64,000 nucleotides of DNA from Candidatus Uhrbacteria bacterium (GCA_903843045.1 CAIMOJ010000046.1:95073-159072), one strand, 5' to 3'. Shown: positions 13,093 through 63,906, counted from the stretch's first letter. Made by a program: numbers and translations. The notes: generated by a model not told the origin, from the letters alone.

Positions 13093-13236
13093 TTGTCCTC
13101 CTGCCCACCTTTCGATGGAGCTTTGCCAACCTACGTGGTTTTGCCGAGTTTGTCAAGAAAAAGACCCCGAAGTACACTGTGGCGGTATGTCATAGAGAGC
13201 TCACGATTCCTCATTTCTATTTTTTAACGTCTCTCT

Positions 13237-30297: not shown

Positions 30298-32181
30298 TTA
30301 TTTCTCTTCGGCCTTCGCGTCAATCGGCTCATCGTTCGTCTTTTCCTCCGAACCCTTGGCCCCCTCGGAACCCTCGGTCCCCTTATTCTCGTACATCTTC
30401 GCCCCAACCTTCTGCGCCGCGTCCGACAGCGTGTCCGCGGCCTTCTTGATGGCCTCGTGGTCGTCGCCGTCCTTCACAGCCTTCAGCGCCGCGATCTTTT
30501 CCTCGATGTCCTTCTTTTCCTCGTCGGTCGCCTTGTCGCCGGCGTCCTTCATCATCTTCTCGGCGGTATAGATCATGTTGTCCGCCAGGTTGCGATGCTC
30601 GATCATCTCCTTCTTCTTCTTGTCCTCGTCGGCATGCTCCTCGGCATCGCGCTTCATGCGCTCGATCTCGTCCTTGGAGAGGCCGGTCGACGCGGTAATC
30701 GTGATCTGCTGGCTCTTGCCGGTGCCTTTGTCCGTCGCAGAGACGTTCAGGATTCCGTTCGCGTCGATGTCGAACTTCACCTCCACCTGCGGCACGCCGC
30801 GCGGCGCCATCGGGATTCCGGAGAGGGTGAAGTGTCCGAGCGGCTTGTTGTCCGCGGCCATCTCGCGCTCGCCCTGGAGAACGACGATTTCGACGGACGA
30901 CTGGTTGTCCGCGGCCGTCGAGAAGACCATCGCCTTCGACGTCGGGATCGTGGTGTTGCGCTCGATCAGCTTCGTCGACACGCCGCCCATCGTCTCGATG
31001 CCGAGCGACAGCGGGGTCACGTCGAGCAGGAGCACGTCCTTCACCTCGCCCTGCAGCACGCCGCCCTGAACCGCCGCGCCGACCGCGACCACCTCGTCCG
31101 GGTTCACCGTGATGTTCGGCTTCTTGCCAAAGAAATCCTCCACGGCCTTCTGCACCATCGGCATGCGCGTCATTCCGCCCACCATGACGATCTCGTTGAT
31201 GTCGCCCTTGTCCATCTTTGCGTCCGCAAGCGCCTTCTTCACCGGACCGAGCGTCTTTTCCACGAGCGGGCGAACGAGCTCTTCCAGTTTCGATCGCGAC
31301 AGCGAAAGCGACAGATGCTTCGGGCCGTTGGCGTCCGACGTGATGAACGGCTGGTTGACCTCCGTCTGCTGGGCCGTCGACAATTCAATCTTGGCACGCT
31401 CGGCGGCATCCTTGATGCGCTGCAGCGCGAGCGGATCCTTTCCGAGGTCGATTCCCTCGGCCTTTCGGAACTCGTCCACGATCCAATCGATAATACAGCG
31501 GTCGAAGTCATCTCCGCCAAGGTGCGTGTCGCCGTTGGTCGACTTCACTTCGACGGTGTCAGCGGAAACGTCGAGCACGGAAACGTCGAACGTTCCGCCC
31601 CCGAGGTCGTACACCATCACCTGCTCGCCCTTCTTCTTGTCGAATCCGTAGGCAAGCGCGGCAGCCGTCGGCTCGTTGATGATGCGCAGAACTTCGAGTC
31701 CGGCGATTTCGCCCGCAACCTTGGTCGCGGCGCGCTGGGCGTCGTCGAAGTACGCCGGAACGGTGATGACCGCCTGCGTGATCTTCTCCCCGAGCTTCTC
31801 CTCCGCGTCCGCCTTGAGCTTCCCAAGGATCATCGCCGAGATCTCCTCCGGCGTGTAATCCGTTCCCGACATGGTAATCGCGATCCCGTCGCCCTTCTTC
31901 ACGATCTTGTACGGCATCGTCTTCATGTCGCGCTGCACCTCGGCGTCGTCAAACCGGCGGCCGATCAGACGCTTGATCGAAAACAGCGTGCTCTCCGCGT
32001 TCGTCACGGCCTGACGCTTCGCAGGTGCTCCAACGAGACGCTCGCCCGTCTTCGTCACGGCGACCATCGAGGGAGTCGTCCGCGCGCCTTCGCGATTTTC
32101 CAAAACCTTCGGCTGTCCGCCTTCAATGATGGACATGCACGAGTTCGTCGTTCCAAGGTCGATTCCAAGAATCTTTGCCAT
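30298..32181 (-). CDS. dnaK: Chaperone DnaK (Hsp70)
   Basis: 627 aa with the Hsp70 signatures IDLGTTNS and DLGGGTFD. Confidence 0.97.
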
Positions 32182-32191
32182 AAAAATATTG

Positions 32192-32677
32192 TTATTTGTT
32201 TACGATGACCTTCCCCGGCCTCACGATCTTGCCTCCCATCTTCCATCCGCGCGCGACGACCTCGACGATCGCGTTCGGGGCGACCTTCTCGTCCGCTCGC
32301 TCGCCGACCGCGTCGTGCAGGTTCGCGTCGAACGGGTCTCCGACTTCGCCGAACGGTTCCACCCCCATCTGGAGAAGGACCTCGTCGAGCTGGGTCTGGA
32401 CGAACAGGATGCCCATGAGCCAGTTCTTCAGCTTCGCGTCGATCCCCTCCGGGACGAACTTCACGGCGGTGTCGAAGTTGTCGATCACCGGGATGATCCG
32501 GCTTGCCGCGTCGGCCGTGGCCGCCGCGCGCATCTCGACGCGCTCGCGTCCCTGCTCCTTCTTCAGGTTGTCGTAATCCGCGAGGGCGCGTTTCCATCCC
32601 GCAAGATACTCGGCTGCCTTGTCCTCGACAGGTGTCTCGACAGTCGGCTCGACCGTCACGTCTTGTTCGTCGCTCAT
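32192..32677 (-). CDS. grpE: Nucleotide exchange factor GrpE
   Basis: Start at MSDEQDVTV (ATG 32677), overlapping the hrcA stop. GrpE coiled-coil plus beta domain. Confidence 0.9.
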
Positions 32678-33387
32678 AGAGAATCGTCTAGAATTTCTTG
32701 AATGTCCGTAACGAGTCCGAGGTTCCTCCCATAGTCCATCCGCATGGGGCCGATCAATCCGAGGATGCCAATCTGTCCGTTTGGCAGCCGACACTTCACC
32801 ATCACCGCGCTCATGTCCTTGCCGAACGGGTTCTCGCTGCCGATGAGAACCTGCGGCTCGCTCGTCATGCGGTCGAACACCTCGCCGACCAGCTGGTCGA
32901 AGCGGTCGAGCATCCGGGAAAGTTCCTGGACGACCACGATGTCGCTGAAGTCGGGTTTGCCCACGAGGTTGGCGACGCCCGAGTAATAGCTGTTGCGCGG
33001 ATCGACCGCGACGATCGCCATCTCGCCCGACAGCTCCATGAGCGTCCGGGCCAGGTCGCGCATGTCGGGCTCTCCGGCTCCGGTCGAGCGGCCGTCCGCG
33101 ACCGACTTCCGGAGCTGGTCGCTGGCCGCGTGTCCGGGCTCCGCGGACACGAAGTTCTGGAGATAGTAGACGTACGCCCTCTCGGTGGGTATCCGTCCGG
33201 CCGACGTGTGCGGCTGGACGATGAATCCCGCATCCTCGAGCGCGGCCATCTCGCTGCGGATGGTGGCGGGCGACACGTTGCTCCCCGACAGCTCCGCGAC
33301 CAGGCGAGACCCGACCGGTTGCGCCGATCGGATATACTCGTCCACGATCGCCTTCAAAATGGCCTCTTGCCGTGGTTCCAGACGCAT
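32674..33387 (-). CDS. hrcA: Heat-inducible transcription repressor HrcA (short form)
   Basis: 237 aa. N-terminal winged helix ILKAIVDEYIRSAQPVGSR...SPATIRSEMAALE. Confidence 0.9.
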   Translation of the reverse strand: MRLEPRQEAILKAIVDEYIRSAQPVGSRLVAELSGSNVSPATIRSEMAALEDAGFIVQPHTSAGRIPTERAYVYYLQNFVSAEPGHAASDQLRKSVADGRSTGAGEPDMRDLARTLMELSGEMAIVAVDPRNSYYSGVANLVGKPDFSDIVVVQELSRMLDRFDQLVGEVFDRMTSEPQVLIGSENPFGKDMSAVMVKCRLPNGQIGILGLIGPMRMDYGRNLGLVTDIQEILDDSL

Positions 33388-33397
33388 AAAATCAAAA

Positions 33398-33424
33398 TTA
33401 GCACTCTCATTGTACGAGTGCTAA
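33398..33424 (-). promoter_or_regulatory. CIRCE operator (TTAGCACTC-N9-GAGTGCTAA) with embedded -10
   Basis: Perfect consensus inverted repeat 11 nt upstream of the hrcA ATG. -35 TTGACA at 33431-33436 and -10 TACAAT inside the N9 spacer. Confidence 0.9.
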
Positions 33425-33460
33425 TTCATCGTGTCAAGGCTGAGAAAAACGGCATGCGCG

Positions 33461-35119
33461 CTATCGGTCCAAGGCCAGTTTCTGCCAGGACAAACGTCGC
33501 GTTTTCTTTTCTGACAGCAACTCGCGCAACTTCTCTCCCCCGAGCACCGTCGGAATGATCACGAACGTCGCACCGGCCGCGTAACACTTCTCAGCCTCGT
33601 CCTTCGTCCGCGCCGACACGACGGCCGTTCCGGCGAATTTCTCGCCGCGAAGATAACCGAGAATCTCGAGCGAAACGCTCACGTCCGGAATGGTCGACAC
33701 GATGAACTTCGCGCGCTCGACCCCGATCTCCTCGAGAAAGCTGTCGTCGCCCGCGTCGCCGTAAATGGCCGGGATGCCGACCGCGGTGAGGTCGCGAATC
33801 ACGATCGGGTCGAAGTCGACCACCGCGAACGGCTGGCGCAGTTCCTCGAGCGCGGAAAGGGCCGCCGTGCCGATGTCGTGCAGGCCGAAGAGATACGTCT
33901 TCACCTCCGGATGGACGACCTTGTGCTCGCGCGAAAGCGACCGTGCCGGCTCCATGAATCGAAACACCGGGCGAAGGATGTCATAGATGGCCGCGTTATG
34001 CTGGATGACGAGCGACGAGGTAGCGATCGTCACGAGCCCGACTGTCGTCGCAAGCGTGAGAATCGACGGATCGATATGGCCGAGCGCAATTCCCGCCGCG
34101 ATCACGATGAACGAGAACTCGGAGATCTGCGCGGCCGTGGTCCCGGAAAGGAACCCTGTGCGCGGATGGTAGCCGAGCGCGCGCATCACGAGCATGGCAA
34201 GGATCGGGTTGCCAACGAGGACGTAGAGCGAGAAGACGATCGTCGGAACGACGAGCGAGCCGACGGACGAGACGTTGAGGTGCGTTCCGAGGACCACGAA
34301 GAAGATCAGCAGGAAGAAGTCGCGCAACGACCGGATGCGCGCGCCGATCTCGCGTTCGAACACCGTTCCCGAAAGCGTTATCCCGGCGATGAGCGCGCCC
34401 ATCTCCACGCCGAATCCGAACCAGACAAGCAGTCCGGCGATGAGAAAGCACCAGGCGACGGAGAAGACGAACAGGAGCTCCTGCGACTTGGCTGCGTATG
34501 CGACGAGACGCGGGACGACGTATGCGGACACGACCATCAGGACGGGGACGAGGAATGCGATCTTGATCAGCGTCTGCGCGATGATATCCGGCAGGCTTGC
34601 CCCGCTCCCGATGGCGCCGAGGCCGAGCAGGATGAACATGGCGATGAAGTCCTGCACGAGGAGGAACCCCACGCTGATGCGCCCGTACAGCGTGTTGAGC
34701 TCGTCCTTGTCCGACAGCAGCTTCACGATCACGATCGTGCTCGAGAACGAGAACGCGACCGCCACGTACAGCGACGTAACTGTCGTGAGCCCGACGAGAC
34801 GTCCGATCACGAACCCAACCACCGACGTCACGAGAACCTGCCCGACCCCCGTCGCAAGCGCGATCCCGCCCACGTCCTTCATCCGCCGCCAGTTCAGCCC
34901 GAGCCCGACCGTGAACAGCAGGAAGGCGACGCCAATCTTCGACAGAGCCTCAAACGTCTCCGGATTTTTCGTCAGCGCGAACACGCTCGGCCCCACGAGA
35001 ATTCCCGTCACGATATACGCGATCACGAGCGGAAGTCGCAAACGCGAAACCACCATCGCGAGCGATGCCGCGAGGACGACGACGGTTCCGATCTCAAAAA
35101 ACAATTCCTGCAGGAGCAT
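33461..35119 (-). CDS. Kef-type K+/H+ antiporter (CPA2) with C-terminal RCK/TrkA-N domain
   Basis: Start at MLLQELFFEIGT (ATG 35119). About 12 TM helices plus a Rossmann-like domain (LFGLHDIGTAA). -10 TATACT upstream. Confidence 0.85.
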   Translation of the reverse strand: MLLQELFFEIGTVVVLAASLAMVVSRLRLPLVIAYIVTGILVGPSVFALTKNPETFEALSKIGVAFLLFTVGLGLNWRRMKDVGGIALATGVGQVLVTSVVGFVIGRLVGLTTVTSLYVAVAFSFSSTIVIVKLLSDKDELNTLYGRISVGFLLVQDFIAMFILLGLGAIGSGASLPDIIAQTLIKIAFLVPVLMVVSAYVVPRLVAYAAKSQELLFVFSVAWCFLIAGLLVWFGFGVEMGALIAGITLSGTVFEREIGARIRSLRDFFLLIFFVVLGTHLNVSSVGSLVVPTIVFSLYVLVGNPILAMLVMRALGYHPRTGFLSGTTAAQISEFSFIVIAAGIALGHIDPSILTLATTVGLVTIATSSLVIQHNAAIYDILRPVFRFMEPARSLSREHKVVHPEVKTYLFGLHDIGTAALSALEELRQPFAVVDFDPIVIRDLTAVGIPAIYGDAGDDSFLEEIGVERAKFIVSTIPDVSVSLEILGYLRGEKFAGTAVVSARTKDEAEKCYAAGATFVIIPTVLGGEKLRELLSEKKTRRLSWQKLALDR

Positions 35120-35169
35120 ATTGACAGTATAGCATTTTTCCCCTACGGTGCGCGACACCCGAGACAATC

Positions 35170-36024
35170 ATGCCGCTGCTCATCGTCCTCTTCTATCAGC
35201 TCGTTCTTTTTCCCATCTTCTACCTGGCCGTCGTTCGCCTCGCGAGCACGGCTCCTGCCGATGCCGTCGATCCCGTTTCCCATTTCTCATCGACCGGACG
35301 CGCCTGCGCGCTCCCAGGATGGGCCGTCACGCTCGGCGCGATGACTCTCGTCCTTGCAATCATCGTCTGGCTCGTGGAGACATAGCCGGACTTCTCGAAG
35401 GCGCTCGACCGCTGGGGCACGATCCTCGTCCTCGGCGCGTTCCTCGGCGGAGTCTTTTCGCCCAAGACAACCTGGACCAGGCTCGCGCTGGGGTACGCGG
35501 CCGCCTACGCGCTCTTCGAGGGAGTGCGCGCCTGGACGAACTGGCTGACGCTGGAAATGCTCGGGTTCGCGGTCTGCGGCATCGGAATCCTGCTCTTTCG
35601 CCAGATCCGGACGCGGTTCCTTTCCTACGGGTCCGTCGGCATGATGCTCTATGACGTCATCAACGTCTTCGGAACGAAGCTGATGCTCCGCATCGTCCCG
35701 GACACATCGGACACGACGTCCATGGCACCAACCCTGGCCGGAACATTCTCCATCCCGATGTCCCTGAGCCTTTCCTCGGACGCGTCCGTCAGCCTCGGCT
35801 TCGGCGACATCGTCATCCCCGGACTCTGGGTGATGGCAGCGGCGCGGACGACCGATCGCCCGACGCGCGCCGTCCTCTGGACCGTTGCCGGAATCTCCGT
35901 CGCGCACGTGGTCACCCTCGGCGTCCTGATCGCCTCACAGGTTCCGCTCCCCGCCCTGCTCTTCCTCCTCCCCGGCGCCGCCGCCGGCTACTGGATCGGC
36001 ACCCACCCTCCGCACACCCGCTAA
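35170..36024 (+). pseudogene. Presenilin/SPP-like (A22 family GxGD) intramembrane aspartyl protease interrupted by an in-frame TAG at 35383-35385
   Basis: The two listed ORFs (35170-35385 and 35524-36024) are in the same frame. The 47 codons after the TAG have high GC3 and no start codon. The joined product has 9 TM helices with YD (MMLYDVINVF), GxGD (LGFGDIVIPG) and PAL (PLPALLFLLPG) motifs. Confidence 0.55.
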
Positions 36025-36113
36025 ACCGGGTGTTTTTTCTTCTTCGCCCGTTCCGTCAGGACGATCGGCAACGTCCTTGAGTCGCAGAGTCGTTGCGTGT
36101 AGGATGCTTGCAT

Positions 36114-36782
36114 ATGTTCACAGGAATCGTAAAAGGACTCGGAACGGTCGTCTCGGGCCACGCGCGGCCGGGACTCGTCAGCTTCACCGTCGAAATGCCC
36201 GCGGGATACGCGGACGGCTTACAAATCGGCGCGTCCGTCGCCATCGACGGGGTTTGCCTGACCGTCACCGACATGTACCCCTCTCCTTCACAAGGAGAGG
36301 GACAGGGTGAGGTCATCGCCTCGGCGTCCTTCGACGCGATGCAGGAAACGCTCGAACGAACGACCATCGGCGCGCTCGTCGAAGGTTCTCGCGTCAACGT
36401 CGAGCGATCCTATCGCGTCGGCGACGAGGTCGGCGGACACATCGTCTCCGGCCACGTCACCGGAACGGCCGATATCGTCGCGATCGACGCGCCGGAAAAC
36501 AACCACGTCATCACCTTCCGCGTCCCGCCGGAATGGATGAAGTACATCCTCCCCAAAGGATTCGTCGCCCTCGACGGATGCTCGCTCACCATCGTCGACG
36601 TCAACCGAACCGATTCGACCTTCACCGTCTGGCTCATCCCCGAGACGCTCCGAATGACAACCTTCGGCTTCAAGAAACCAGGCGACAAAGTAAACCTCGA
36701 GATCGATTCGAAGACCCAAACCATCGTCGACACCGTAGAATCTTTCCTATCCGTACATCCCCAGATCCGTAATTCGTACTAA
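36114..36782 (+). CDS. ribE: Riboflavin synthase alpha subunit
   Basis: Start at MFTGIVKGLG. Two lumazine-binding repeats. Carries the extra peptide YPSPSQGEGQGEV encoded by mini-element copy 3. Confidence 0.9.
   Translation: MFTGIVKGLGTVVSGHARPGLVSFTVEMPAGYADGLQIGASVAIDGVCLTVTDMYPSPSQGEGQGEVIASASFDAMQETLERTTIGALVEGSRVNVERSYRVGDEVGGHIVSGHVTGTADIVAIDAPENNHVITFRVPPEWMKYILPKGFVALDGCSLTIVDVNRTDSTFTVWLIPETLRMTTFGFKKPGDKVNLEIDSKTQTIVDTVESFLSVHPQIRNSY
36278..36314 (+). repeat. Intragenic palindromic mini-element, type II, copy 3 (in ribE)
   Basis: CCCCTCTCCTTCACAAGGAGAGGGACAGGGTGAGGTC with a 10-bp hairpin CCCTCTCCTT/AAGGAGAGGG. 36 of 37 nt identical to the copy at 51840-51876. Confidence 0.8.
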
Positions 36783-36791
36783 AAAATCCGT

Positions 36792-37193
36792 ATGAGAAAT
36801 ATCGCCATCGTCCTCGGCTCGTTCCACACGAAGGAGGTCTCGGAGATGCTCGACGAGGCCAAGCAGACCGCGGCCGAGCTCGGGCTCAACATCGTCGAGC
36901 TCGTATGGGTCCCGGGATCCATCGAGAAGCCGCTCGCGCTCAAGCGCCTGCTGATGCGCAGCGATATCCACGGCTGCGTGGCGCTCGGCATCATCGAGCG
37001 CGGCGCCACCAAGCATGGCCTCGTGATGGGCGAGGTGGTGTACGACGCCATCATCCGCCTCATGCTCGAATTCATGAAGCCCATCGGCCTCGGCATCCTC
37101 GGGCCGGAGATCGACCCGGAACAGATCGAACCCCGCCTTCGCCCGTACGCCCGCGCCGCGGTGGAAGCGACGGCCAAGATGATGGTCGTATGA
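36792..37193 (+). CDS. ribH: 6,7-dimethyl-8-ribityllumazine synthase
   Basis: 133 aa, lumazine synthase fold. Confidence 0.92.
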   Translation: MRNIAIVLGSFHTKEVSEMLDEAKQTAAELGLNIVELVWVPGSIEKPLALKRLLMRSDIHGCVALGIIERGATKHGLVMGEVVYDAIIRLMLEFMKPIGLGILGPEIDPEQIEPRLRPYARAAVEATAKMMVV

Positions 37194-38674
37194 TCGACGA
37201 CGACGGGTCCGTCCCGATGATCGTCGGAGCCGGCGTGATGCTTGGCGCGCTGTTTTACGGCTTGGTTTGGAGTTCGAACGGACTGGGAATCAACGCGTTT
37301 CTGATGCAGATCGCGTTCGTGGCCGCCATCGCCTGGCTCACGCGTCGAGCGGGCCGAACCCTTCCCCGCGAGGCGTGGGTTGCGGCGGCTTTCTCGCTGG
37401 CATTCGCGGGAACCTTTGCGATATGGACGTCCGACCTTGCGCTGGGCGTCGCGTTCGTCTGCCTCATGGTGTCGGAGGCGGCGTTCATTCTCTACGCCAT
37501 CGGCCATCACTTTGAATTCCACCACCCCGCGCTCTTTGCCCACGCCGCGTTCGTCATGACGCCCATCCATGCCCTCGGACGGCTCGGCATCTTCCGTCAC
37601 CTTCCGCTCCCAAGCCGCGCCCCGGCGCAAACGCGATCAATCGTGGTGGGCCTTCTCGCGCTTGTCCCGGTCCTGCTCGTCTTCGGAACCCTGTTCGCAT
37701 CCGCGGATCCCCTGTTCGGAGACTACGTGCGGAGTGTCCTAAATTTCTCCTCCGTTCCAGACTGGACGAGATACGCCGTTGGAACCCTCTTCTGGTCCGT
37801 CGCGTTCGCGTCCCTGCTCGGCCTCGCGTTTTGGAAACGGGAAACGTTCGCGTCGCACGTCCGGCCGAGTCCGCAGTGGCACGTCGAAAGCAACGTCGTT
37901 CTCTGCGGAGTCATCGGCCTGTTCGCGCTCTTTATCGCCGTCCAGGCAACCTACCTGTTCGGCGGCGAAGCGGCGTTCCTTGCCACCGACTATACCTTTT
38001 CCGAGTACGCCCGCCGCGGTTTCAACGAGCTCGTAACCGTCGCGACGATCGTTCTGTTCCTCTTCCTCAGCCTGCGCTACCTCCACGGCGATCGCGCGTC
38101 AAACATCCTGAGAGTTCTGTATGGCGTCCTCTTCGGCGAGACCCTGCTCGTCCTTCTCTCCGCGATCATCCGCATGAACCTGTACGTGGACGCCTACGGC
38201 TATACCGCGGCAAGGCTGTTCGCCTACGCGTTCCTTACGGCCGTCGCGACCCTCATCGTCGTCGCCTTCGTCCACGTCCTGCGCAACGAGCCCCAGCCGC
38301 GATTTATCCGGCAAGGACTGGTCGTCACCGGAATCTTCGCCCTTGCGTTCGTCGTCTCCGCCCCGGACGCACTGTCCATGAGCCTGAACGAGAACCGCTT
38401 CCGCCAGAACGGAGGAATCAGCCTGCTGGATATTATCTACGCGTCCGAGGAGGCATACCCGGTCATGCGCTCCATGGAAGCGCGCGGCATCGTCGCGTAC
38501 GATCTCGGGCCGTCGCAGGAGCTGACGGATACGGAAGTAAACGCGGAATTCCCCAGCCCCCAACCGGACTGGCGCCAATGGAACTTCTCAAAATCCCGCA
38601 TTGATCCGTCGAAACCCTATCCCTGGCTTGGCTGCGTAACCCCCGAATGCACGGCGACCGAAGCCCAGCCTTGA
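37190..38674 (+). CDS. Hypothetical polytopic membrane protein (DUF4153/DUF4173-like)
   Basis: Start at MIDDDGSVP, with an ATGA overlap on the ribH stop. About 12 TM helices and a C-terminal extracytoplasmic tail. Confidence 0.6.
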   Translation: MIDDDGSVPMIVGAGVMLGALFYGLVWSSNGLGINAFLMQIAFVAAIAWLTRRAGRTLPREAWVAAAFSLAFAGTFAIWTSDLALGVAFVCLMVSEAAFILYAIGHHFEFHHPALFAHAAFVMTPIHALGRLGIFRHLPLPSRAPAQTRSIVVGLLALVPVLLVFGTLFASADPLFGDYVRSVLNFSSVPDWTRYAVGTLFWSVAFASLLGLAFWKRETFASHVRPSPQWHVESNVVLCGVIGLFALFIAVQATYLFGGEAAFLATDYTFSEYARRGFNELVTVATIVLFLFLSLRYLHGDRASNILRVLYGVLFGETLLVLLSAIIRMNLYVDAYGYTAARLFAYAFLTAVATLIVVAFVHVLRNEPQPRFIRQGLVVTGIFALAFVVSAPDALSMSLNENRFRQNGGISLLDIIYASEEAYPVMRSMEARGIVAYDLGPSQELTDTEVNAEFPSPQPDWRQWNFSKSRIDPSKPYPWLGCVTPECTATEAQP

Positions 38675-41735: not shown

Positions 41736-41848
41736 TCGTACCTCCGACGTGAGAGTAGACGAGGAAATCCCCTGCGTCAAGAATCGGGTGCCGCTCCTTG
41801 ACGCATCTTCGATTTCCCTCTACCCTACGCGGACACACGGAGCCTCGC

Positions 41849-42442
41849 ATGGCAATCATCGTAGACGCGTGCCCCGCGGAGGCGGGATGGCGCTATCGCC
41901 TCAGGGACACGCAGACGGCACGGTACGTGACCGACGGGACCGGCGCGGTCGAGATCACGGCGGAAATCAAGGCCATGATGGAATGGGGCGGAGTCCAGGA
42001 AAGCCCGGACGCGAATGCCGTCCTGAACCGGTGGCTGAACCTGGCACGTACGCGCGGCAGCAGCGACCTCTCGAAGAAGGCCGTGGAGCCCGCGGACAGG
42101 AAGTGACAGGCGCCGACGGAGACGGATCCGCCGGCCGGACCGCTCCGCTACGCCATCCGGTCGGCAGCCGTTGCTGGACAAATCGTCCAGGGCATCCTGA
42201 ACACCCAGATTGCCGAATGGACGTCCCGTCTCTCCCCCGAGGCGGCCGCGTTCCTGGGAACGTCCTTCGTCATTCCAGAGCTCCTGCGCGGCCCCGGCAC
42301 GGCGGTAATCCGTGCCCGCATCGGCTCGCATGCCGACACGCAGAAGCTCGTCACGGAAATCACCCTCGCCTTGCCCGAGATCGTCTCCGTCGAAACCGAA
42401 TGCGTCGACGATACCATCTCCTTCGTCTTCCGCCTGCGCTAG
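41849..42442 (+). pseudogene. Hypothetical protein gene with an in-frame TGA at 42104-42106 (85 + 111 codons)
   Basis: -35 TTGACG / -10 TACCCT / SD GGAG before ATG 41849. After the TGA the same frame continues for 111 high-GC3 codons with no ATG, GTG or TTG start until close to its end. It ends with TAG at 42440-42442, followed by a terminator-like hairpin. Confidence 0.5.
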
Positions 42443-44225: not shown

Positions 44226-45524
44226 TCAAGCCGCTTCCACCCACGCCCCGTACTGGCGAACGAGCAGTTCCTCCGCCCGCAGCGGCTCGGCCATCAGGTC
44301 CTTCACGACCTTTTCCATCCGTGCGCTCTGCGAACCCTTCACGAGCACGATGTCGCCCTTCTTCACGTTGAAGTCCAGCCATCTCCCCGCCTCGACCGAC
44401 GTCGCGAAGAACTCGACGTTGTGCTCGTCCATCCCGGCCTCGATGGCGCCGCGGCGCGTGTCGCGGCCCTCCTCGTTCACGCAGACGAGAATGTCCGCGA
44501 CCTCGGCGGCGCGCATGCCGAGAAGACGGTGCTCATTTTCGGAGTAGCGGCCGAGCTCGGCCATCTTGCCGAGGACGGCGATGCGACGCGCGTTTTCGTC
44601 GGGAGAGAAAAATCGAAGGACCTCTAGGGCGGAAGCCATCGAGGCGGGCGCGGCGTTATAGGAATCGTCGAGGAGGAGCGTCTCCTTGATGCCCGGCAGC
44701 GGGCGCATGCGTCCGGCCTGGGGTTGGAGCGTTCGGAGCGCGGCGACGATCTCGGAGAGCGGCATGCCGAAGTGTCGTCCGACCGCGGCGGCCGCGAGGG
44801 CGGCGCAGGCCTGGCCGCGGCCGAGGAGGTTTGGCAGGGAGACCTCGGCGCGCTCGTCGCCAACGACGAGGTCGAAGTGGATCTCGCAGAACGGCTCGTC
44901 GGACTGGCAGCGGAGAACGTCGTGCGTCTCGACGTGATAGTTTTCGGCGCGGACGTCGAGGCCTTCCGAGAACCCGTAGGTGACGACGGTTCCGTCGCCT
45001 CGTTCCGCAATCACGAGCGGGTCGTCGCCATTCAAAATCGCGACTCCTCCCCTCTTGAGATGACGGACGATTCCCGCCTTCTCGTGGGCGAGCGCCTCGA
45101 TCGAATCGAAATATTCCGCGTGGACCGGCGAGACGGCCGTGAAGACGGCCACGTCGGGCGGGGCGATCTTGCAGAGCGCGTCCATGTCGCCGGGACGGTC
45201 GATGCCGTACTCGAGCGCGAGGAGGTTCGGATACTTTGCGCGCGGGAGCAGCCAGAGCGCCTTGGCCCGGGCAAGGATGCCCAGCCAGCCCAGAATCGAC
45301 GAACCCGCGGTCTTTTCGCCGACGATCGTCAGCGGGACGCCGAACTCGTTGTTGTAGTTCTCCTCCGGAGACCGAACGACAAACCGACCGTCCAGGACGG
45401 CCGCGATCGCGTTTCGCGTCGAAGTCTTTCCGACCGACCCCGTCACGGCGACGACGGTCGGACGGTAGCGACGAAGGGTCATGCGGGCATGGAAGGCGAG
45501 CAACGATTGGATGAGATATTTCAT
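44226..45524 (-). CDS. murF: UDP-N-acetylmuramoyl-tripeptide--D-alanyl-D-alanine ligase MurF
   Basis: Start at MKYLIQSLLAF (ATG 45524). Mur ligase P-loop VTGSVGKTST. Confidence 0.9.
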   Translation of the reverse strand: MKYLIQSLLAFHARMTLRRYRPTVVAVTGSVGKTSTRNAIAAVLDGRFVVRSPEENYNNEFGVPLTIVGEKTAGSSILGWLGILARAKALWLLPRAKYPNLLALEYGIDRPGDMDALCKIAPPDVAVFTAVSPVHAEYFDSIEALAHEKAGIVRHLKRGGVAILNGDDPLVIAERGDGTVVTYGFSEGLDVRAENYHVETHDVLRCQSDEPFCEIHFDLVVGDERAEVSLPNLLGRGQACAALAAAAVGRHFGMPLSEIVAALRTLQPQAGRMRPLPGIKETLLLDDSYNAAPASMASALEVLRFFSPDENARRIAVLGKMAELGRYSENEHRLLGMRAAEVADILVCVNEEGRDTRRGAIEAGMDEHNVEFFATSVEAGRWLDFNVKKGDIVLVKGSQSARMEKVVKDLMAEPLRAEELLVRQYGAWVEAA

Positions 45525-45544
45525 AGGGTTATGGGGTCCGGAGG

Positions 45545-45592
45545 GTCGAAGGTTCGAAGAGCCGCGGTTCTTCGAACCTTCGACCCTATCCT
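45545..45592. repeat. GGTCGAAGG-family palindrome (18-bp stem hairpin) between ftsI and murF
   Basis: GGGTCGAAGGTTCGAAGAGCCGCGGTTCTTCGAACCTTCGACCC. The same core motif occurs at 10452-10500 and 26718-26760. Confidence 0.5.
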
Positions 45593-45605
45593 CCCTTCTC
45601 ACCCC

Positions 45606-47372
45606 TCAGAGAGGCCGCTCCGGCGGCACTTCGAAATATTGAAGAAGAAACTTCGCGATGTCCCCGAACAGCGGCGCGGCGGACGACTCGGCCCAGGTGA
45701 CGTCGCGCGGATGGTCGATGCGGACGATCATGACGAACCGCGGATTGTTCACCGGGCCGAACCCCGCGAACGAGCCGATCGTCGAGTCAAGCTCGTACCC
45801 GCCGCCGTCCGAACGCGCGACCTGCGCCGTGCCGGTCTTTCCGCCGATGTAATACCCCGGCACGCCCGCCTTCTTTCCGTGCCCGTTTTCGACGACGGAG
45901 ACAAGCATCGCTCCCAGCAGGCTCGCGGTCTTCGGCTGGACGACGCGGCGCACCTCCTGCGGAACGCGCGGATCGTGCGTCCCGTCCGGCTTCACCACGT
46001 CCTCGACGACATACGGCCGCATCAGCATCCCGTTGTTCGCAAGCGCGCCGTACGCCGCCACCATCTGAACCGGCGTGACCGTGATCCCCTGCCCGAACGA
46101 CGCGGTCGCCGCGTAAATCTCCTGTCCGATATCGAGCGACGCGATCGTACCCGACGACTCGGTTTCCATCTCCAATCCCGTTCGGACGCCGAACCCGAAG
46201 TTCTTCACGTACTCGACGAACTTTTCCATTCCCATCTGTCGCATCGAGTACACCATGCCCGTATTCACCGATTCCTCCAGCACGGTCGTCATGTCGATCA
46301 GCCCGTACACCTTGTTCTGCGCGTTCCGGATCGGCCTCGGCCATCCGCTCACCATCACCTCGCCCGTGTCCGTGAACGTGGTCGTGGGCGTCACGGCCCC
46401 GGTATCGACGGCCGCGGCCATCGTGATTGCCTTGAAGATGGATCCCGGCTCGTAGGAGTTGAAGATGGCAGGATTGTTGAAGGAATCGGTGGAAGGAGCA
46501 TTGCGATAATCGCCAGGCTCAAAGTCTGGCGACCCGCACATGGCAAGAATCTTGCCCGTTTTCGGCTCCATGACGATCACGCTTCCGCCGTCCGCCCCGT
46601 GCCGCGCCACGGCCTCCTTCAGCTTGGTGCACGCCTCGTACTGAATCGTGCGGTCTATCGTCAATACCACGTCGGACCCGTTCACCGCCGGCTCGATCGA
46701 GCGCTCCCCGACCGCGATCAAGCGCCCCGCGATGTCGCGCTCGCTGCGTAGGAACCCGGGAGTACCCGTCAGCTCCTGGTTGAAGTATCCCTCGATCCCG
46801 TACTTTCCGGTCATGGTCCCGTCCTCCGACGACCCGACGAACCCCGTCACCTGCCCTCCGAGCCCGGACTCGGGATACAGGCGTCCTTCCTCCCGGATAA
46901 AGTAGATACCGGGTAACTTCAGCGCGATGAGTTCCGAGAGCTTGTCCTCCTTCACGTTGCGCATGATCGGCTCGTAGGGGTCGGTATGCACGTCGAGGTG
47001 CGTCGCAATCGTCTTGACCTTGTCCGCGTCGAACCCGAACAGCGCCCCGAGCTTGTCGGCCGTCCCGATCGCATCCACGACCTTTCGCGGGTCGGCATAC
47101 ACGAACGAAACCTGCTGAACCGTCGCGATCGGAACGAGCGAGCCGTCCTTCATGTCATGGATCAGGATATCGCCGCGGCTCGGGAACAGTTCCTTGAAAA
47201 TCTCATGCTGGCCCGAGGCAAGCGCCACGTACGTGTCGTGGTCGAGCACCTGGAGCACGAACAGCTTCAGCGTGATCGCCACCGCAAACGCAACCATTCC
47301 GTAACGAATGGCATTCATGCGCCACTCGTTGTTTCCCTGCGACAGTGAGGATCCTCGTCGGTGTCGTGTCAT
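45606..47372 (-). CDS. ftsI: Peptidoglycan D,D-transpeptidase FtsI/PBP2-like (class B PBP)
   Basis: Start at MTRHRRGSS (ATG 47372). N-terminal TM, PBP dimerisation domain, and transpeptidase motifs SIFK, SVN and KTGT. Confidence 0.9.
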   Translation of the reverse strand: MTRHRRGSSLSQGNNEWRMNAIRYGMVAFAVAITLKLFVLQVLDHDTYVALASGQHEIFKELFPSRGDILIHDMKDGSLVPIATVQQVSFVYADPRKVVDAIGTADKLGALFGFDADKVKTIATHLDVHTDPYEPIMRNVKEDKLSELIALKLPGIYFIREEGRLYPESGLGGQVTGFVGSSEDGTMTGKYGIEGYFNQELTGTPGFLRSERDIAGRLIAVGERSIEPAVNGSDVVLTIDRTIQYEACTKLKEAVARHGADGGSVIVMEPKTGKILAMCGSPDFEPGDYRNAPSTDSFNNPAIFNSYEPGSIFKAITMAAAVDTGAVTPTTTFTDTGEVMVSGWPRPIRNAQNKVYGLIDMTTVLEESVNTGMVYSMRQMGMEKFVEYVKNFGFGVRTGLEMETESSGTIASLDIGQEIYAATASFGQGITVTPVQMVAAYGALANNGMLMRPYVVEDVVKPDGTHDPRVPQEVRRVVQPKTASLLGAMLVSVVENGHGKKAGVPGYYIGGKTGTAQVARSDGGGYELDSTIGSFAGFGPVNNPRFVMIVRIDHPRDVTWAESSAAPLFGDIAKFLLQYFEVPPERPL

Positions 47373-47373
47373 A

Positions 47374-48606
47374 TCATTGTCCGAGCCCAAAGCCAAAGAG
47401 CGATCCGGTCCCGCTTGGATTCTGTCCGTTCAGAACCTCCTCGCCGTCGCTTTTCCCATCGCCGTCCGTGTCCGCCTTGTTCGGGTTCGTCCCGTAGAAC
47501 GCCTCGACGATCGCGGAAAGCCCGTCATTGTCCGCGTCGTCCGTCGCGTTCGTTGTCTCCACGGGAAGGTGCGCCGCGTCGTTCGTGACAAGCGCGGTCG
47601 CCGGTCTGCCCGCCATATCCGCCGACGATTCCAGCGAGCCGATCATCGCGTTCGCGATCGACGAGAAGCCGACGGTCTTCTTCGAACCCGGCACCTCGCC
47701 ACCGTAGGGAGCGTTGAAATCCGAAAGATTTACGAGAACGTCGACGGTCGCCTTCGTCTTCGGTTCCTCCGCAACCGTCCCAGCGACCTGAAACCGATAG
47801 AGCAGATGGTCGGTCGTCCCGATCCAAAGCCGAACCTTCAGCGATTCCAGCTGCTTGGCCCGAGACTCGACGATCACCCGTTCCGCGTCGTTCGGCTCGC
47901 GATTTTCCTTCGCGCGAATCTCGTCCGCCAGAAACGCCCGAATCGCGTCCGGGTCGAACCGCGCCTCGATCACCCGCGTCGCATGCGCGTCGACGATCTC
48001 GGTCACGTCGTCGTACCGAACGAGAAAGACGTCCGCGACGGAAAGGAGGTCACGCAGGCGAAGGATCGCGTCGTCCGTCCAGGGAGTCGCGGGTTCGAGG
48101 TACGAGGACGTCGCAGGCAACGAGACGATCGGCGCGTCCAGACCCGGCAGCACGGAACCCCACTTCGGCAATTCCCCATCCGCGAAGGAGACCCACGTTT
48201 CCTTCGACGAAAAGTCCACGCCGGGAACGTTCGGTCCCGGCGGCGAGTACGTCAGGTACGTCGTCCCGCCCTTCGTCCTCAGCTCGCCGGACAGGTCCGC
48301 GTACTCCTTCGACGTCTTCAGCCGGAACAGCCGAAACTTCGTATCCTGCTGAATGGACGGCAGACCCGAAAGGTCCATCTGCCCGACGAGATAGAGCGAC
48401 GTCGCCACCCGGGCCTTCCCCTCACCCCGCGTCCAGGAAAACGCCGACCGCTCCCGAACGGTCTGAACCTTCGACATCGCCCGCAGCATCCGCGGAATCT
48501 CGGCCTCGGGCCGAAACTTCATGAAGACCACGTAAACCGCGAAGACGACGATCAAAACGAAAAGCACGGCGGAGGCGATAAAGTAGAGGGCGCGGCGGCC
48601 GTTCAT
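47374..48606 (-). CDS. Hypothetical bitopic membrane protein with C-terminal thrombospondin-type-3-like Ca-binding repeats
   Basis: N-terminal TM (ALYFIASAVLFVLIVVFAVYVV) and a C-terminal DADNDG / DTDGDGKSDGEE region. Sits in the FtsL position upstream of ftsI. Start ATG 48606 (or GTG 48615). Confidence 0.55.
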   Translation of the reverse strand: MNGRRALYFIASAVLFVLIVVFAVYVVFMKFRPEAEIPRMLRAMSKVQTVRERSAFSWTRGEGKARVATSLYLVGQMDLSGLPSIQQDTKFRLFRLKTSKEYADLSGELRTKGGTTYLTYSPPGPNVPGVDFSSKETWVSFADGELPKWGSVLPGLDAPIVSLPATSSYLEPATPWTDDAILRLRDLLSVADVFLVRYDDVTEIVDAHATRVIEARFDPDAIRAFLADEIRAKENREPNDAERVIVESRAKQLESLKVRLWIGTTDHLLYRFQVAGTVAEEPKTKATVDVLVNLSDFNAPYGGEVPGSKKTVGFSSIANAMIGSLESSADMAGRPATALVTNDAAHLPVETTNATDDADNDGLSAIVEAFYGTNPNKADTDGDGKSDGEEVLNGQNPSGTGSLFGFGLGQ

Positions 48607-49228: not shown

Positions 49229-50644
49229 ATGGCGACATCCCACGCGGACCACGAGGTCTGGCAGAAAGAGCAGAATTTCATCTCGCAAAAGCGCAAGGAG
49301 AACCGAGAGCTGTTCGCGTCGTCGGACAAGGGCGCGTTCGATCTGTATGATCGAATCGGCATCACGTCGCATCCGCCGCAGCTGCCGAAGGGGTACGTGA
49401 AATATTCGCCGCTCGACTTCATCGTCGAGGAAATCCGTCCGGACGGAACGCTCATGACCGTCGACGGCCAGCCCGCCGTGCCGGAGACGCCCGACGGCGA
49501 GGGGACGATTTACGCGGATCTCACCAAGCTTGGCATCTCGACGCTCGACGCGGTCCAGCGCATGACCGACGTGCTTGGGGTTCCCCAGGACAAGATCGGC
49601 TACGCGGGAATCAAGGACGCGGTCGCGCTTACGGCGCAGCGAATCAGCGTCCGCGGAGGGTCGCTTGAGGCCGTGAAGAATCTCGCGATCACCGGCTGCC
49701 AGTTTCGACAGGTGGTCGACGGCAAGGGCGTGATCTCGACCGGCAACCTGAAGGGGAATCGGTTCACCCTTCTCATCCGCACGGAAGGCGAGCCCGACAA
49801 GGAGGCGTTCGCCGCGGCGATCGAGCTGGTGAAGACGCGGGGCGTGATGAACTACTACGGCACGCAGCGCTTCGGCACGCCGCGGTTTCTCGCCCACCTG
49901 TTCGGCGCGCACATCATGCGCGGCGACCTCGAATCGCTCATCAAGGCGTACCTCATGCAGCCGAGCCCGTACGAGCTCCCGTTCTACGCCAACATCCGGG
50001 CCGAGGCGGCCGCGGCGTATGGCGACTTTGCAAAGATGCAGACGATCATGGGAGTGCTCCCCTACTCGTTCCGCTACGAGCTCCAGATGCTCGAGGAGCT
50101 CGTCAAGAACCCGACGGGCTTCGAGGCGGCCATGAACCGCACGCAAAAGCAGGCGGACCTCTGGGCCCGCGCCTACGCCAGCTATCTCACCAACCTCATC
50201 CTCGCCGACGCGGAAAAAAACGGAACCAAGCTCCCGGACCGCATCCCGCTCCTCATCACGCAGGAACCGGAGGCGAAGCAGTTTTACGCGTCGTGGCTCA
50301 AACAGCACGGAACGGAGAGGTACATGGAGAACCTGAGAAAGTACCGGTTCATCAACGTGGGAAAGAACCAGACCATCGAGCCCGTCATCCGCCCGACGGT
50401 CCATGATTACAAGTTCGTCCCCGAGGGAATCGTCATCTCGTTCGACCTTCCGAAGGGCGCCTACGCGACAACGATCCTGATGTACCTGTTCGACTCCGTC
50501 AGCGGAACGCCGATTCCGGAATGGATGAACACGGCCGAGGTCGACACCAAGGAACTCCTCGGCACCGGCTCGCTCCGCCACGTCCGCGAACAATTTGCCG
50601 GGGAGATCGTTTCGGCGATGGCGAACAAGACGGACGACGAGTAG
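49229..50644 (+). CDS. truD: tRNA pseudouridine(13) synthase TruD
   Basis: 471 aa with catalytic-Asp motif GIKDAVALTAQRIS and NYYGTQRFG. Extended -10 TGgTAGAAT upstream. Confidence 0.88.
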   Translation: MATSHADHEVWQKEQNFISQKRKENRELFASSDKGAFDLYDRIGITSHPPQLPKGYVKYSPLDFIVEEIRPDGTLMTVDGQPAVPETPDGEGTIYADLTKLGISTLDAVQRMTDVLGVPQDKIGYAGIKDAVALTAQRISVRGGSLEAVKNLAITGCQFRQVVDGKGVISTGNLKGNRFTLLIRTEGEPDKEAFAAAIELVKTRGVMNYYGTQRFGTPRFLAHLFGAHIMRGDLESLIKAYLMQPSPYELPFYANIRAEAAAAYGDFAKMQTIMGVLPYSFRYELQMLEELVKNPTGFEAAMNRTQKQADLWARAYASYLTNLILADAEKNGTKLPDRIPLLITQEPEAKQFYASWLKQHGTERYMENLRKYRFINVGKNQTIEPVIRPTVHDYKFVPEGIVISFDLPKGAYATTILMYLFDSVSGTPIPEWMNTAEVDTKELLGTGSLRHVREQFAGEIVSAMANKTDDE

Positions 50645-61279: not shown

Positions 61280-61280
61280 A

Positions 61281-63897: not shown

Positions 63898-63906
63898 AGA
63901 AAAATT

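What the first reader, a model, noticed from the sequence alone, without database searches (positions are those of the whole stretch)
35170..36024. Presenilin/signal-peptide-peptidase-like GxGD intramembrane protease gene split by an in-frame TAG
ORFs 35170-35385 and 35524-36024 share a frame. The intervening 47 codons after TAG(35383-35385) are clearly coding (high GC3, hydrophobic helices). The joined 284-aa product has 9 TM helices with YD (LYDVINVF), GxGD (GFGDIVIPG) and PAL (PLPALLF) motifs in the order and spacing of the A22 family. A22 proteases are uncommon in bacteria. The internal stop could be a recent pseudogenisation, a read error or programmed read-through.
Basis: partly seen in the sequence, partly recalled or inferred. 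Interest (0 to 1): 0.65.

Follow-up and report, generated by a model that had tools for sequence, protein, structure and literature searches.

The report
Nonsense-mutated presenilin-type protease gene
A candidate-phyla-radiation bacterium (Candidatus Uhrbacteria) carries a well-conserved presenilin/signal-peptide-peptidase-type membrane protease gene that a single real G-to-A change (TGG Trp to TAG stop) has interrupted, most likely a young loss-of-function allele and so fairly ordinary.

Summary
Window 35170-36024 (+) is one reading frame with a single internal TAG at 35383-35385. The joined 284-aa product is a GxGD (A22B, signal-peptide-peptidase-type) intramembrane aspartyl protease. Support: Pfam PF04258 E=8.6e-12; family profile vs human SPPL2a E=2.9e-28 and archaeal PSH E=1.8e-15; invariant D (of YD), GxGD and PA (of PAL); a 9-helix AlphaFold model whose top 23 PDB matches are all SPPL2a, presenilin-1 or PSH.

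The host is a Ca. Uhrbacteria (CPR) bacterium. Syntenic orthologs at 80%, 45% and 36% identity are all intact. The closest two have TGG (Trp) where the window has TAG.

The TAG is not a read error. The exact 71-aa truncated product is on at least 18 contigs from NCBI, ENA and Logan, and two contigs from different samples are 100% identical to the window.

TAG is a normal terminator here (8 of 46 genes, including SecA). No recoding signal, suppressor tRNA or restart codon lies near the stop.

There are no other lesions. dN/dS is 0.22-0.34 on both sides of the stop.

Verdict: a recent nonsense allele in a known family. Residual function by read-through or as a TM5-9 fragment is not excluded.

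The parts
35121..35149 (+). Possible promoter of the protease gene: perfect -35 box TTGACA (35121-35126), 17-nt spacer, weak -10 box TACGGT (35144-35149)
   Evidence: Read from the sequence. The stretch is nearly identical in ortholog locus L001. It did not reach the consensus threshold of the promoter scan, so this is inference only.
35170..35382 (+). N-terminal 71 codons of the A22B protease gene (TM1, cytoplasmic loop, TM2)
   Evidence: The ATG and the MPL(L/I/V)IVLFY start are conserved in orthologs L001, L085 and L086. Public gene calls list it as a separate 71-aa protein, P0006.
35326..35332 (+). Site of a 9-bp in-frame deletion (3 residues of TM2) that is derived in the window lineage
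   Evidence: DNA alignment with L001. The outgroups L086 and P0004 have residues at this position.
35383..35385 (+). Premature stop codon TAG. The closest orthologs have TGG (Trp75 of P0001), at the turn between TM2 and TM3
   Evidence: The allele is present in at least 18 contigs and 32 collection blocks. Loci L002 and L003 are 100% identical to the window.
35386..35523 (+). 46 codons after the stop that contain no ATG, GTG or TTG (TM3 and TM4). They can be translated only if the TAG is read through
   Evidence: GC3 is 0.91 and dN/dS against L001 is 0.22.
35524..36024 (+). C-terminal ORF (166 aa from GTG 35524, or 155 aa from ATG 35557) holding TM5-TM9 and all the catalytic motifs: YD at 35650-35655, GxGD at 35797-35808, PAL at 35950-35958. 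The stop codon TAA is at 36022-36024
   Evidence: Pfam Peptidase_A22B E=1e-12 and SPP E=3.4e-6. Public gene calls list it as the 155-aa protein P0002. The motif columns are invariant in the family alignment.
36014..36043 (+). Intrinsic-terminator-like hairpin (7-bp stem, 6-nt loop) overlapping the TAA, followed by a T run
   Evidence: It is conserved in L001, with one G-U pair.

Best explanation
The locus is the single-copy, syntenic ortholog of a conserved CPR-bacterial family of SPP-type (A22B) GxGD intramembrane aspartyl proteases. Intact members are about 290 aa with nine TM helices. The two catalytic aspartates sit in TM6 (YD) and TM7 (GxGD), and a PAL motif precedes TM9. The topology is N-terminus outside and C-terminus inside.

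By homology, such enzymes cut type II-oriented transmembrane segments within the membrane, for example signal-peptide remnants or membrane-anchored regulators.

In this Ca. Uhrbacteria strain, one G-to-A transition changed the Trp codon at the TM2/TM3 turn (TGG) into TAG. Ribosomes therefore terminate after 71 residues (TM1-TM2). The catalytic part is left without a nearby start codon. The gene is thus most likely a very young loss-of-function allele (an incipient pseudogene) fixed in a clonal, widely sampled population.

Shown here: family membership, the ancestral TGG, the reality of the allele, normal use of TAG as a terminator, and the absence of other lesions. Inferred: loss of function, the substrate class and the topology.
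For: Family membership:
- Pfam PF04258 is above its cut-off.
- The family profile hits SPPL2a at E=2.9e-28 over the full length and PSH at 1.8e-15.
- D (of YD), GxGD and PA (of PAL) are invariant in 22 diverse members; the Tyr of YD is nearly invariant.
- The AlphaFold model has pLDDT 86 and pTM 0.85, with 9 helices.
- The top 23 Foldseek PDB hits are all SPPL2a, presenilin-1 or PSH, with TM-scores mostly 0.5-0.69.
- K+R counts put loops 1, 3, 5 and 7 and the C-terminus inside, which is the SPP orientation.

Ancestral state:
- L001 and L085 have TGG at the aligned codon.
- Syntenic orthologs at 45% and 36% identity are full length in the same setting, with Kef on the minus strand upstream and A22B-RibE-RibH on the plus strand.

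The allele is real:
- The exact 71-aa product is on 18-19 contigs from NCBI, ENA and Logan, in 32 blocks.
- L002 and L003, from different samples and assemblers, are 100% identical to the window over 6.2 kb and 5.6 kb.
- No intact allele of this species turned up in the 5.8-billion-cluster search.

TAG terminates here:
- It ends 8 of 46 putative genes. These include SecA, whose SEC-C motif ends one residue before the stop, and Kef, which has the same 552-aa length as its orthologs.

The mutation is young:
- There are no further stops or frameshifts.
- dN/dS is 0.34 (codons 1-71), 0.22 (73-118) and 0.25 (119-284), all clearly below 1.
- The window lineage shows no excess of derived amino-acid changes: 10 vs 8, and 2 vs 7 with the second outgroup.

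No rescue signals:
- There is no ATG, GTG or TTG for 46 codons after the TAG.
- The RNA downstream has no unusual structure (z = -0.35).
- No suppressor tRNA lies in the window.
Against: Apart from the stop, the ORF is perfectly preserved. That is also what continued function would look like.

The tests for relaxed selection have little power. Even if the gene had been neutral along the whole window branch (d about 0.19), the chance of seeing no further stop is still 0.055. The polarised substitution counts are also small.

CPR genomes are streamlined and the gene is conserved in every other lineage found, so its loss may carry a cost. No redundant paralog was found in the window or in the database search, although a relative does have one.

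All sampled contigs are clonal, so population data cannot show whether selection still acts on the gene.
Confidence: 0.7

Rival explanations
1. The gene is still functional at a low level. Termination at ACA-TAG-C is leaky, and near-cognate decoding (for example by tRNA-Trp, Gln, Tyr or Lys) yields some full-length 284-aa protease. That is enough for an enzyme needed in small amounts.
For: The whole frame stays intact and clean on both sides of the stop. dN/dS is 0.22 in the 46 codons that only read-through could translate. The base after the stop is C, which established work in E. coli associates with weaker termination (my own knowledge, not tested here). The stop falls at a poorly conserved position in the TM2/TM3 turn, so any inserted residue should be tolerated.
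Against: The stop is not conserved, since orthologs have TGG. No downstream structure is present. TAG followed by C also ends two ordinary genes here, including Kef. The low dN/dS is equally explained by a very recent mutation, because it averages over the whole divergence from L001.
Confidence: 0.12
2. The locus works as a truncated or two-piece enzyme. The TM5-TM9 core, with both aspartates and PAL, is translated on its own from GTG 35524 or ATG 35557. It may act alone or together with the 71-aa TM1-TM2 peptide, much as presenilin acts as an NTF/CTF heterodimer.
For: The downstream ORF holds all the catalytic motifs and alone passes the Pfam thresholds for A22B and SPP. The number of N-terminal helices varies in the family. 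P0027 is a complete 214-aa member without TM1-TM2, with stop codons upstream. A C-terminal region of human SPP has been reported to be a functional catalytic domain (Narayanan et al. 2007, J Biol Chem 282:20172, cited as reference 24 in PMC2947513; I did not read that paper itself). The N-out orientation needed for TM5 fits the predicted topology.
Against: TM3-TM4 would be lost, and they are present even in the shortest confirmed complete member. The candidate starts have poor Shine-Dalgarno context: GAGGGA abuts the GTG with no spacer, and only GGAA lies before the ATG. The restart point is 139 nt beyond the stop. No ortholog shows such an arrangement. P0022, which looked like a natural TM5-TM9 form, is merely cut off by a contig end.
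Confidence: 0.1
3. The TAG is an artefact: a sequencing or assembly error, or a consensus call of a minority variant.
For: Raw reads could not be inspected. All contigs compared are 100% identical, so they could share a systematic error.
Against: The identical allele occurs in at least 18 contigs and 32 collection blocks. These were produced by different assemblers and from different samples in NCBI, ENA and Logan. The site is not a homopolymer. The sister lineage, sequenced in comparable data, reads TGG. No intact allele of this species exists in the protein collection.
Confidence: 0.03
4. TAG is a sense codon in this organism, through genetic-code reassignment or pyrrolysine.
For: Stop-codon reassignments are known in some CPR lineages, for example UGA in Gracilibacteria and Absconditabacteria (my own knowledge).
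Against: TAG ends 8 of 46 putative genes in the window at the expected C-termini, for example SecA right after its SEC-C motif. A scan for stops embedded in coding-like sequence found no other in-frame TAG inside a gene. No tRNA(CUA) or pyl genes lie in the window.
Confidence: 0.02

Closest known systems
Eukaryotic signal peptide peptidase / SPP-like proteases (MEROPS A22B; Pfam PF04258; human SPPL2a structures 9k92 and 9k93)
   Same: It is the best sequence and fold match. The profile E-value is 2.9e-28 over all nine TM helices, and the top Foldseek hits have TM-score about 0.61. The YD, GxGD and PAL motifs fall in TM6, TM7 and before TM9. The predicted N-out/C-in topology is the SPP orientation.
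   Different: The protein is bacterial (CPR) and only about 285-300 aa. It lacks the luminal protease-associated (PA) domain and the long tails of SPPL2a, and identity is only about 17-18%. In this window the gene is interrupted by a stop codon. No substrate or activity is known.
Archaeal presenilin homolog PSH / MCMJR1 (PDB 4hyc, 4hyg; NCBIfam NF041679; Pfam PF06550)
   Same: It is a prokaryotic, stand-alone, roughly 300-aa nine-TM GxGD protease that needs no partner subunits. The profile E-value is 1.8e-15, and 4hyg and 4hyc are Foldseek hits.
   Different: The NCBIfam equivalog model scores far below its cut-off, 21 bits against 125, so this is not an ortholog of PSH. The family here has a true PAL motif, whereas MCMJR1 has PPL (PMC2947513). 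It scores better against the A22B model than against the PSH/SPP model.
Presenilin-1 (A22A), the catalytic subunit of gamma-secretase
   Same: It has the same fold (TM-score up to 0.69) and the same catalytic motifs. Presenilin works as two fragments (NTF/CTF), which is the precedent for the idea of a split enzyme.
   Different: The Pfam Presenilin model scores below its cut-off, 15 bits against 34. The predicted membrane orientation is the opposite. There are no partner subunits. Presenilin is cleaved between TM6 and TM7, not after TM2.
Annotated CPR homologs, for example 'presenilin family intramembrane aspartyl protease' HKX73363.1 (Candidatus Saccharimonadales) and 'presenilin-like A22 family membrane protease' (IMG)
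   Same: They belong to the same family as retrieved by exhaustive phmmer (P0021 and P0009), with the same length class and motifs.
   Different: Those genes are intact and only 23-28% identical to P0001, the intact ortholog. The window's copy carries a premature TAG and is called publicly as two unnamed ORFs of 71 and 155 aa.

Membership tests
A22 GxGD intramembrane aspartyl proteases (A22B / SPP branch) | Significant match to the curated family model | tested here: met
   PF04258 Peptidase_A22B gives E=8.6e-12 and 45.7 bits against a cut-off of 23.3 on the joined product, and 48.7 bits on the C-terminal ORF alone. Only profile positions 106-260 are matched by Pfam. The family profile aligns to SPPL2a over positions 3-287.
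A22 GxGD intramembrane aspartyl proteases (A22B / SPP branch) | First catalytic Asp in a YD motif in TM6 | tested here: met
   LYDVINVF is present, with Asp162 at 35653-35655. The Asp is invariant and the Tyr nearly invariant in 22 family members. It lies in helix 151-171 of the model.
A22 GxGD intramembrane aspartyl proteases (A22B / SPP branch) | Second catalytic Asp in a GxGD motif at the start of TM7 | tested here: met
   GFGD lies at 35797-35808. G213 and D216 are invariant and G215 is nearly invariant. The motif sits at the start of helix 215-230, preceded by a short beta hairpin.
A22 GxGD intramembrane aspartyl proteases (A22B / SPP branch) | PAL motif before TM9 | tested here: met
   PAL lies at 35950-35958. 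P264 and A265 are invariant.
A22 GxGD intramembrane aspartyl proteases (A22B / SPP branch) | Nine-TM presenilin fold | tested here: met
   This was tested on the intact 80%-identical ortholog P0001. AlphaFold gives pLDDT 86.2 and pTM 0.85, with 9 TM helices. The top 23 Foldseek PDB hits are all SPPL2a, presenilin-1 or PSH.
A22 GxGD intramembrane aspartyl proteases (A22B / SPP branch) | SPP-type orientation (N-terminus outside, C-terminus cytoplasmic) | tested here: inconclusive
   The positive-inside count over 22 members favours N-out/C-in. Net charges are +0.9, +2.0, +1.95 and +1.8 for loops 3, 5 and 7 and the C-terminus, and -1.2 for loop 6. This is a prediction only.
A22 GxGD intramembrane aspartyl proteases (A22B / SPP branch) | Uninterrupted gene encoding the whole enzyme | tested here: not met
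   TAG at 35383-35385 interrupts the gene after codon 71, and the allele is confirmed in many assemblies. The locus is a disrupted member of the family, not a demonstrably functional one.
A22 GxGD intramembrane aspartyl proteases (A22B / SPP branch) | Intramembrane proteolytic activity sensitive to aspartyl-protease transition-state inhibitors | not testable with these tools
   Needs biochemistry.
Archaeal PSH (NCBIfam NF041679 equivalog) | Score above the equivalog cut-off | tested here: not met
   21.1 bits against a cut-off of 125.
Programmed stop-codon read-through / recoding site | Stop codon conserved in orthologs | tested here: not met
   The two closest orthologs have TGG. More distant orthologs are uninterrupted.
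Programmed stop-codon read-through / recoding site | Stimulatory RNA structure or special decoding apparatus | tested here: not met
   The 88 nt from the TAG fold no better than shuffled sequence (z = -0.35). No tRNA(CUA) lies in the window. The rest of the genome could not be examined.
Young pseudogene | Disabling lesion that is absent from intact, syntenic orthologs and is real in the population | tested here: met
Young pseudogene | Relaxed selection or further decay | tested here: inconclusive
   No further stops or frameshifts are present. dN/dS is 0.22-0.34 and the lineage shows no acceleration. However, power is low: the chance of no further stop is 0.055 even for neutrality along the whole branch.

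The most novel reading that the evidence does not exclude
The strain still makes an active GxGD protease despite the fixed TAG. It would do so either by efficient natural read-through of ACA-TAG-C or as a naturally split or truncated enzyme, a TM5-TM9 catalytic core with or without the TM1-TM2 peptide. That would be a first natural example of a fragment-type presenilin/SPP-family protease in bacteria, and it would give a minimal catalytic core for the family.
Probability: 0.1. Interest if true: 0.55.

Novelty: new member of a known kind. Interest (0 to 1): 0.25.

Why it matters
For this locus, the practical point is annotation. The two public ORFs (71 aa and 155 aa, both unnamed) are halves of one nonsense-mutated A22B protease gene and should be flagged as a disrupted gene.

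More broadly, the work shows that Uhrbacteria-like CPR bacteria keep an SPP-type GxGD protease at a conserved position, between a divergently transcribed Kef-type antiporter gene and the riboflavin synthase genes ribE and ribH. It persists across lineages down to 36% identity, sometimes with a second paralog, and elsewhere next to site-2 protease genes. No bacterial member of this family has been characterised. No paper in the searched library links presenilin or SPP with Patescibacteria.

A clonal, widely sampled strain that has lost the gene is a natural knockout. It could help in working out what the enzyme does. If instead the enzyme still works, the strain would define a minimal catalytic core.

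Tried and rejected
- **Genome scan for orthologs.** A scan of 185,579 species-representative genomes with the 4-sequence alignment found no relative, not even the window's own species. The 22-sequence alignment was too diverse to search with.
- **JGI metagenome scan.** It gave only one distant relative, at 33% identity, so no lineage of intermediate distance was available to date the mutation.
- **Word-indexed protein searches.** They returned very few family members. A search for a second A22B paralog from the window's own genome found none, but its sensitivity was limited by the 8000-candidate ceiling. No paralog lies in the 64-kb window.
- **AlphaFold-database fold library.** It was not available.
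- **Code reassignment or pyrrolysine.** Rejected. TAG terminates 8 of 46 genes, and no other in-frame TAG sits inside a gene.
- **Other split-gene candidates.** The same-frame neighbours 44226-45605 / 45606-47429 and 36081-36782 / 36783-37193 turned out to be distinct genes: MurE and FtsI, and RibE and RibH.
- **Recoding RNA structure downstream of the TAG.** None found.
- **Natural TM5-TM9 forms.** P0022 looked like one but is an ORF cut off by a contig end.
- **Tests for relaxed selection.** The relative-rate and stop-accumulation tests were run but lack the power to separate a young pseudogene from a gene that is still selected.
- **Literature.** Searches found nothing on bacterial or CPR presenilin/SPP homologs.

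Full report
**Observation**

Window 35170-36024 (+) translates in one frame to 284 sense codons. It has a single internal TAG at 35383-35385 and a terminal TAA. The ORF list shows the two same-frame pieces, 35170-35385 (71 aa) and 35524-36024 (166 aa, GTG start).

The only correction is that 46 codons, not 47, lie between the TAG and the GTG.

**What the gene is**

- The joined product matches Pfam Peptidase_A22B at E=8.6e-12 (45.7 bits, cut-off 23.3). It matches the PSH/SPP and Presenilin models more weakly.
- The archaeal PSH equivalog model of NCBIfam is far below its cut-off.
- An exhaustive phmmer search with the intact ortholog found 106 clusters at 50% identity, nearly all 280-310 aa.
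- In an alignment of 22 diverse members, the invariant columns include the Asp of YD, G and D of GxGD, and P and A of PAL; the Tyr of YD is nearly invariant.
- A profile of that alignment hits human SPPL2a (9k92) at E=2.9e-28 over profile positions 3-287, and archaeal PSH (4hyc) at 1.8e-15.
- AlphaFold on the ortholog P0001 with this alignment gives pLDDT 86.2 and pTM 0.85. The model has nine TM helices and a short beta hairpin before TM7.
- The 23 best Foldseek PDB matches are all SPPL2a, presenilin-1 or PSH, with TM-scores mostly 0.5-0.69 and up to 0.69.
- Lys+Arg counts over the family place loops 1, 3, 5 and 7 and the C-terminus in the cytoplasm. That is an N-out/C-in topology, the SPP orientation rather than the presenilin one.

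Membership of the A22 family, closest to the A22B/SPP branch, is therefore well supported.

**Organism and context**

The window encodes SecA, ClpB, DnaB, MurE, FtsI, TruD, a class II ribonucleotide reductase and other bacterial genes. Its SecA is 91% identical to that of a MAG named Candidatus Uhrbacteria bacterium RIFOXYB12_FULL_58_10. The next hits, at 57-64%, are Patescibacteria, Uhrbacteria and unclassified-bacterium MAGs. The host is thus a CPR bacterium with about 62% G+C.

The protease gene appears to stand alone as a transcription unit:
- It lies downstream of a TTGACA-17 nt-TACGGT element, which did not reach the threshold of the promoter scan.
- It is followed by a hairpin and T-run terminator that overlaps the stop codon.
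- A divergently transcribed Kef-type antiporter gene lies upstream, and ribE and ribH lie downstream.

The same arrangement holds for the orthologs P0001 (80% identity), P0003 (45%) and P0004 (36%). The gene is therefore old and vertically inherited in this clade.

Public sources already name some family members:
- 'presenilin family intramembrane aspartyl protease' (Candidatus Saccharimonadales, HKX73363.1);
- 'presenilin-like A22 family membrane protease' (IMG);
- 'hypothetical protein' in a Parcubacteria-group bacterium.

**The stop codon**

The DNA alignment with L001 shows TGG where the window has TAG, a single G-to-A transition. A second contig of the sister lineage, L085, also has TGG. 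The more distant orthologs are uninterrupted. In the model, this Trp sits at the turn between TM2 (residues 50-74) and TM3 (76-98), and the position is not conserved across the family.

The allele is real:
- The exact 71-aa product and the 155-aa downstream gene call are in the public collection on 19 contigs from NCBI, ENA and Logan. The index lists the 71-aa product in 32 blocks.
- Two contigs from different samples and assemblers are 100.000% identical to the window over 6.2 kb and 5.6 kb.
- No intact allele of this species appeared in the 5.8-billion-cluster search.

A read error is therefore very unlikely. The identity of the contigs also means that all the samples hold one clone.

**Is TAG decoded?**

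TAG ends 8 of 46 putative genes in the window. These include SecA, whose SEC-C motif ends one residue before the stop, and Kef, which has the same 552-aa length as its orthologs. Scans for stops embedded in coding-like sequence found no other in-frame TAG within a gene.

The window has no tRNA(CUA). The RNA downstream of the TAG folds no better than shuffled sequence (z = -0.35). No ATG, GTG or TTG occurs for 46 codons after the stop. The first candidate starts, GTG 35524 and ATG 35557, have poor Shine-Dalgarno context and would give only TM5-TM9.

**Age of the lesion**

- There is no other stop and no frameshift. The only other change is one derived 9-bp in-frame deletion in TM2.
- dN/dS against L001 is 0.34 for codons 1-71, 0.22 for codons 73-118 and 0.25 for codons 119-284, with bootstrap upper limits of 0.65 or less. 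The neighbouring Kef and HrcA genes give 0.07 and 0.10.
- Polarised with outgroups, the window lineage has 10 derived replacements against 8 in L001. With the second outgroup the counts are 2 against 7. There is no acceleration.

These data fit a recent mutation, but they are weak evidence. Even if the gene had been neutral along the whole branch, no further stop would be seen with probability 0.055.

**Conclusion**

The most likely reading (about 0.7) is a young nonsense allele that inactivates a conserved SPP-type GxGD protease in one clonal Ca. Uhrbacteria strain.

Two rescue scenarios remain open at about 0.1 each:
- **Leaky read-through.** The base after the stop is C and the site is a tolerant loop position.
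- **A truncated or two-piece enzyme built on the TM5-TM9 core.** The downstream ORF passes the Pfam thresholds alone. A complete 214-aa member lacking TM1-TM2 exists. A C-terminal catalytic domain of human SPP has been reported (Narayanan et al. 2007, cited in PMC2947513).

An artefact and a code reassignment are both very unlikely.

This is a disrupted member of a known family, of modest interest. The side result is that the family is conserved and syntenic in CPR bacteria and has never been characterised.

Noticed in passing
window 60431-61339 (-): A 302-aa ORF matches the pyridine nucleotide-disulphide oxidoreductase model only from profile position 105 of 291, plus the dimerisation domain. 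No N-terminal FAD-binding or redox-cysteine part lies upstream in any frame, and a glycoside-hydrolase-like gene abuts it. It is possibly a truncated gene remnant.
   Followed up: partly
window 41798-42442 (+), TGA at 42104-42106: Two ORFs of about 100 and 111 codons share a frame and are separated by a single TGA. GC3 is 0.78-0.87 on both sides. This is either two small genes or a second in-frame stop. There is no Pfam match, and no relative was available for comparison.
   Followed up: partly
window 49858-49952 (-): ARAGORN calls a 95-nt tRNA-Ile(gat) inside the TruD ORF. Rfam's tRNA model does not match there, so it is probably a false positive.
   Followed up: partly
L086 1886-2782 (+) and 5065-5934 (+): A related genome (ortholog 45% identical, same synteny) carries a second A22B paralog (P0016, 298 aa) 2.3 kb upstream of the syntenic copy. 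No such paralog lies in the 64-kb window.
   Followed up: partly
L087 4817-9866: In a groundwater metagenome contig, a family member (P0025) sits between two Peptidase_M50 (site-2 protease) genes. This clustering of intramembrane protease genes might hint at a shared pathway.
   Followed up: no
L094 357-1001: P0027 is a complete 214-aa family member that lacks TM1-TM2, with stop codons in frame upstream. The number of N-terminal helices therefore varies in the family.
   Followed up: partly
window 62320-63906 (-) and 11812-13152 (-): Two long ORFs (528 and 446 codons) with a strong coding signature (GC3 0.89 and 0.82) have no Pfam match at all.
   Followed up: no
window 30298-38674: The gene order is conserved in relatives down to 36% protease identity: DnaK, GrpE, HrcA and Kef on the minus strand, then A22B, RibE, RibH and a DUF4153 protein on the plus strand.
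   Followed up: yes
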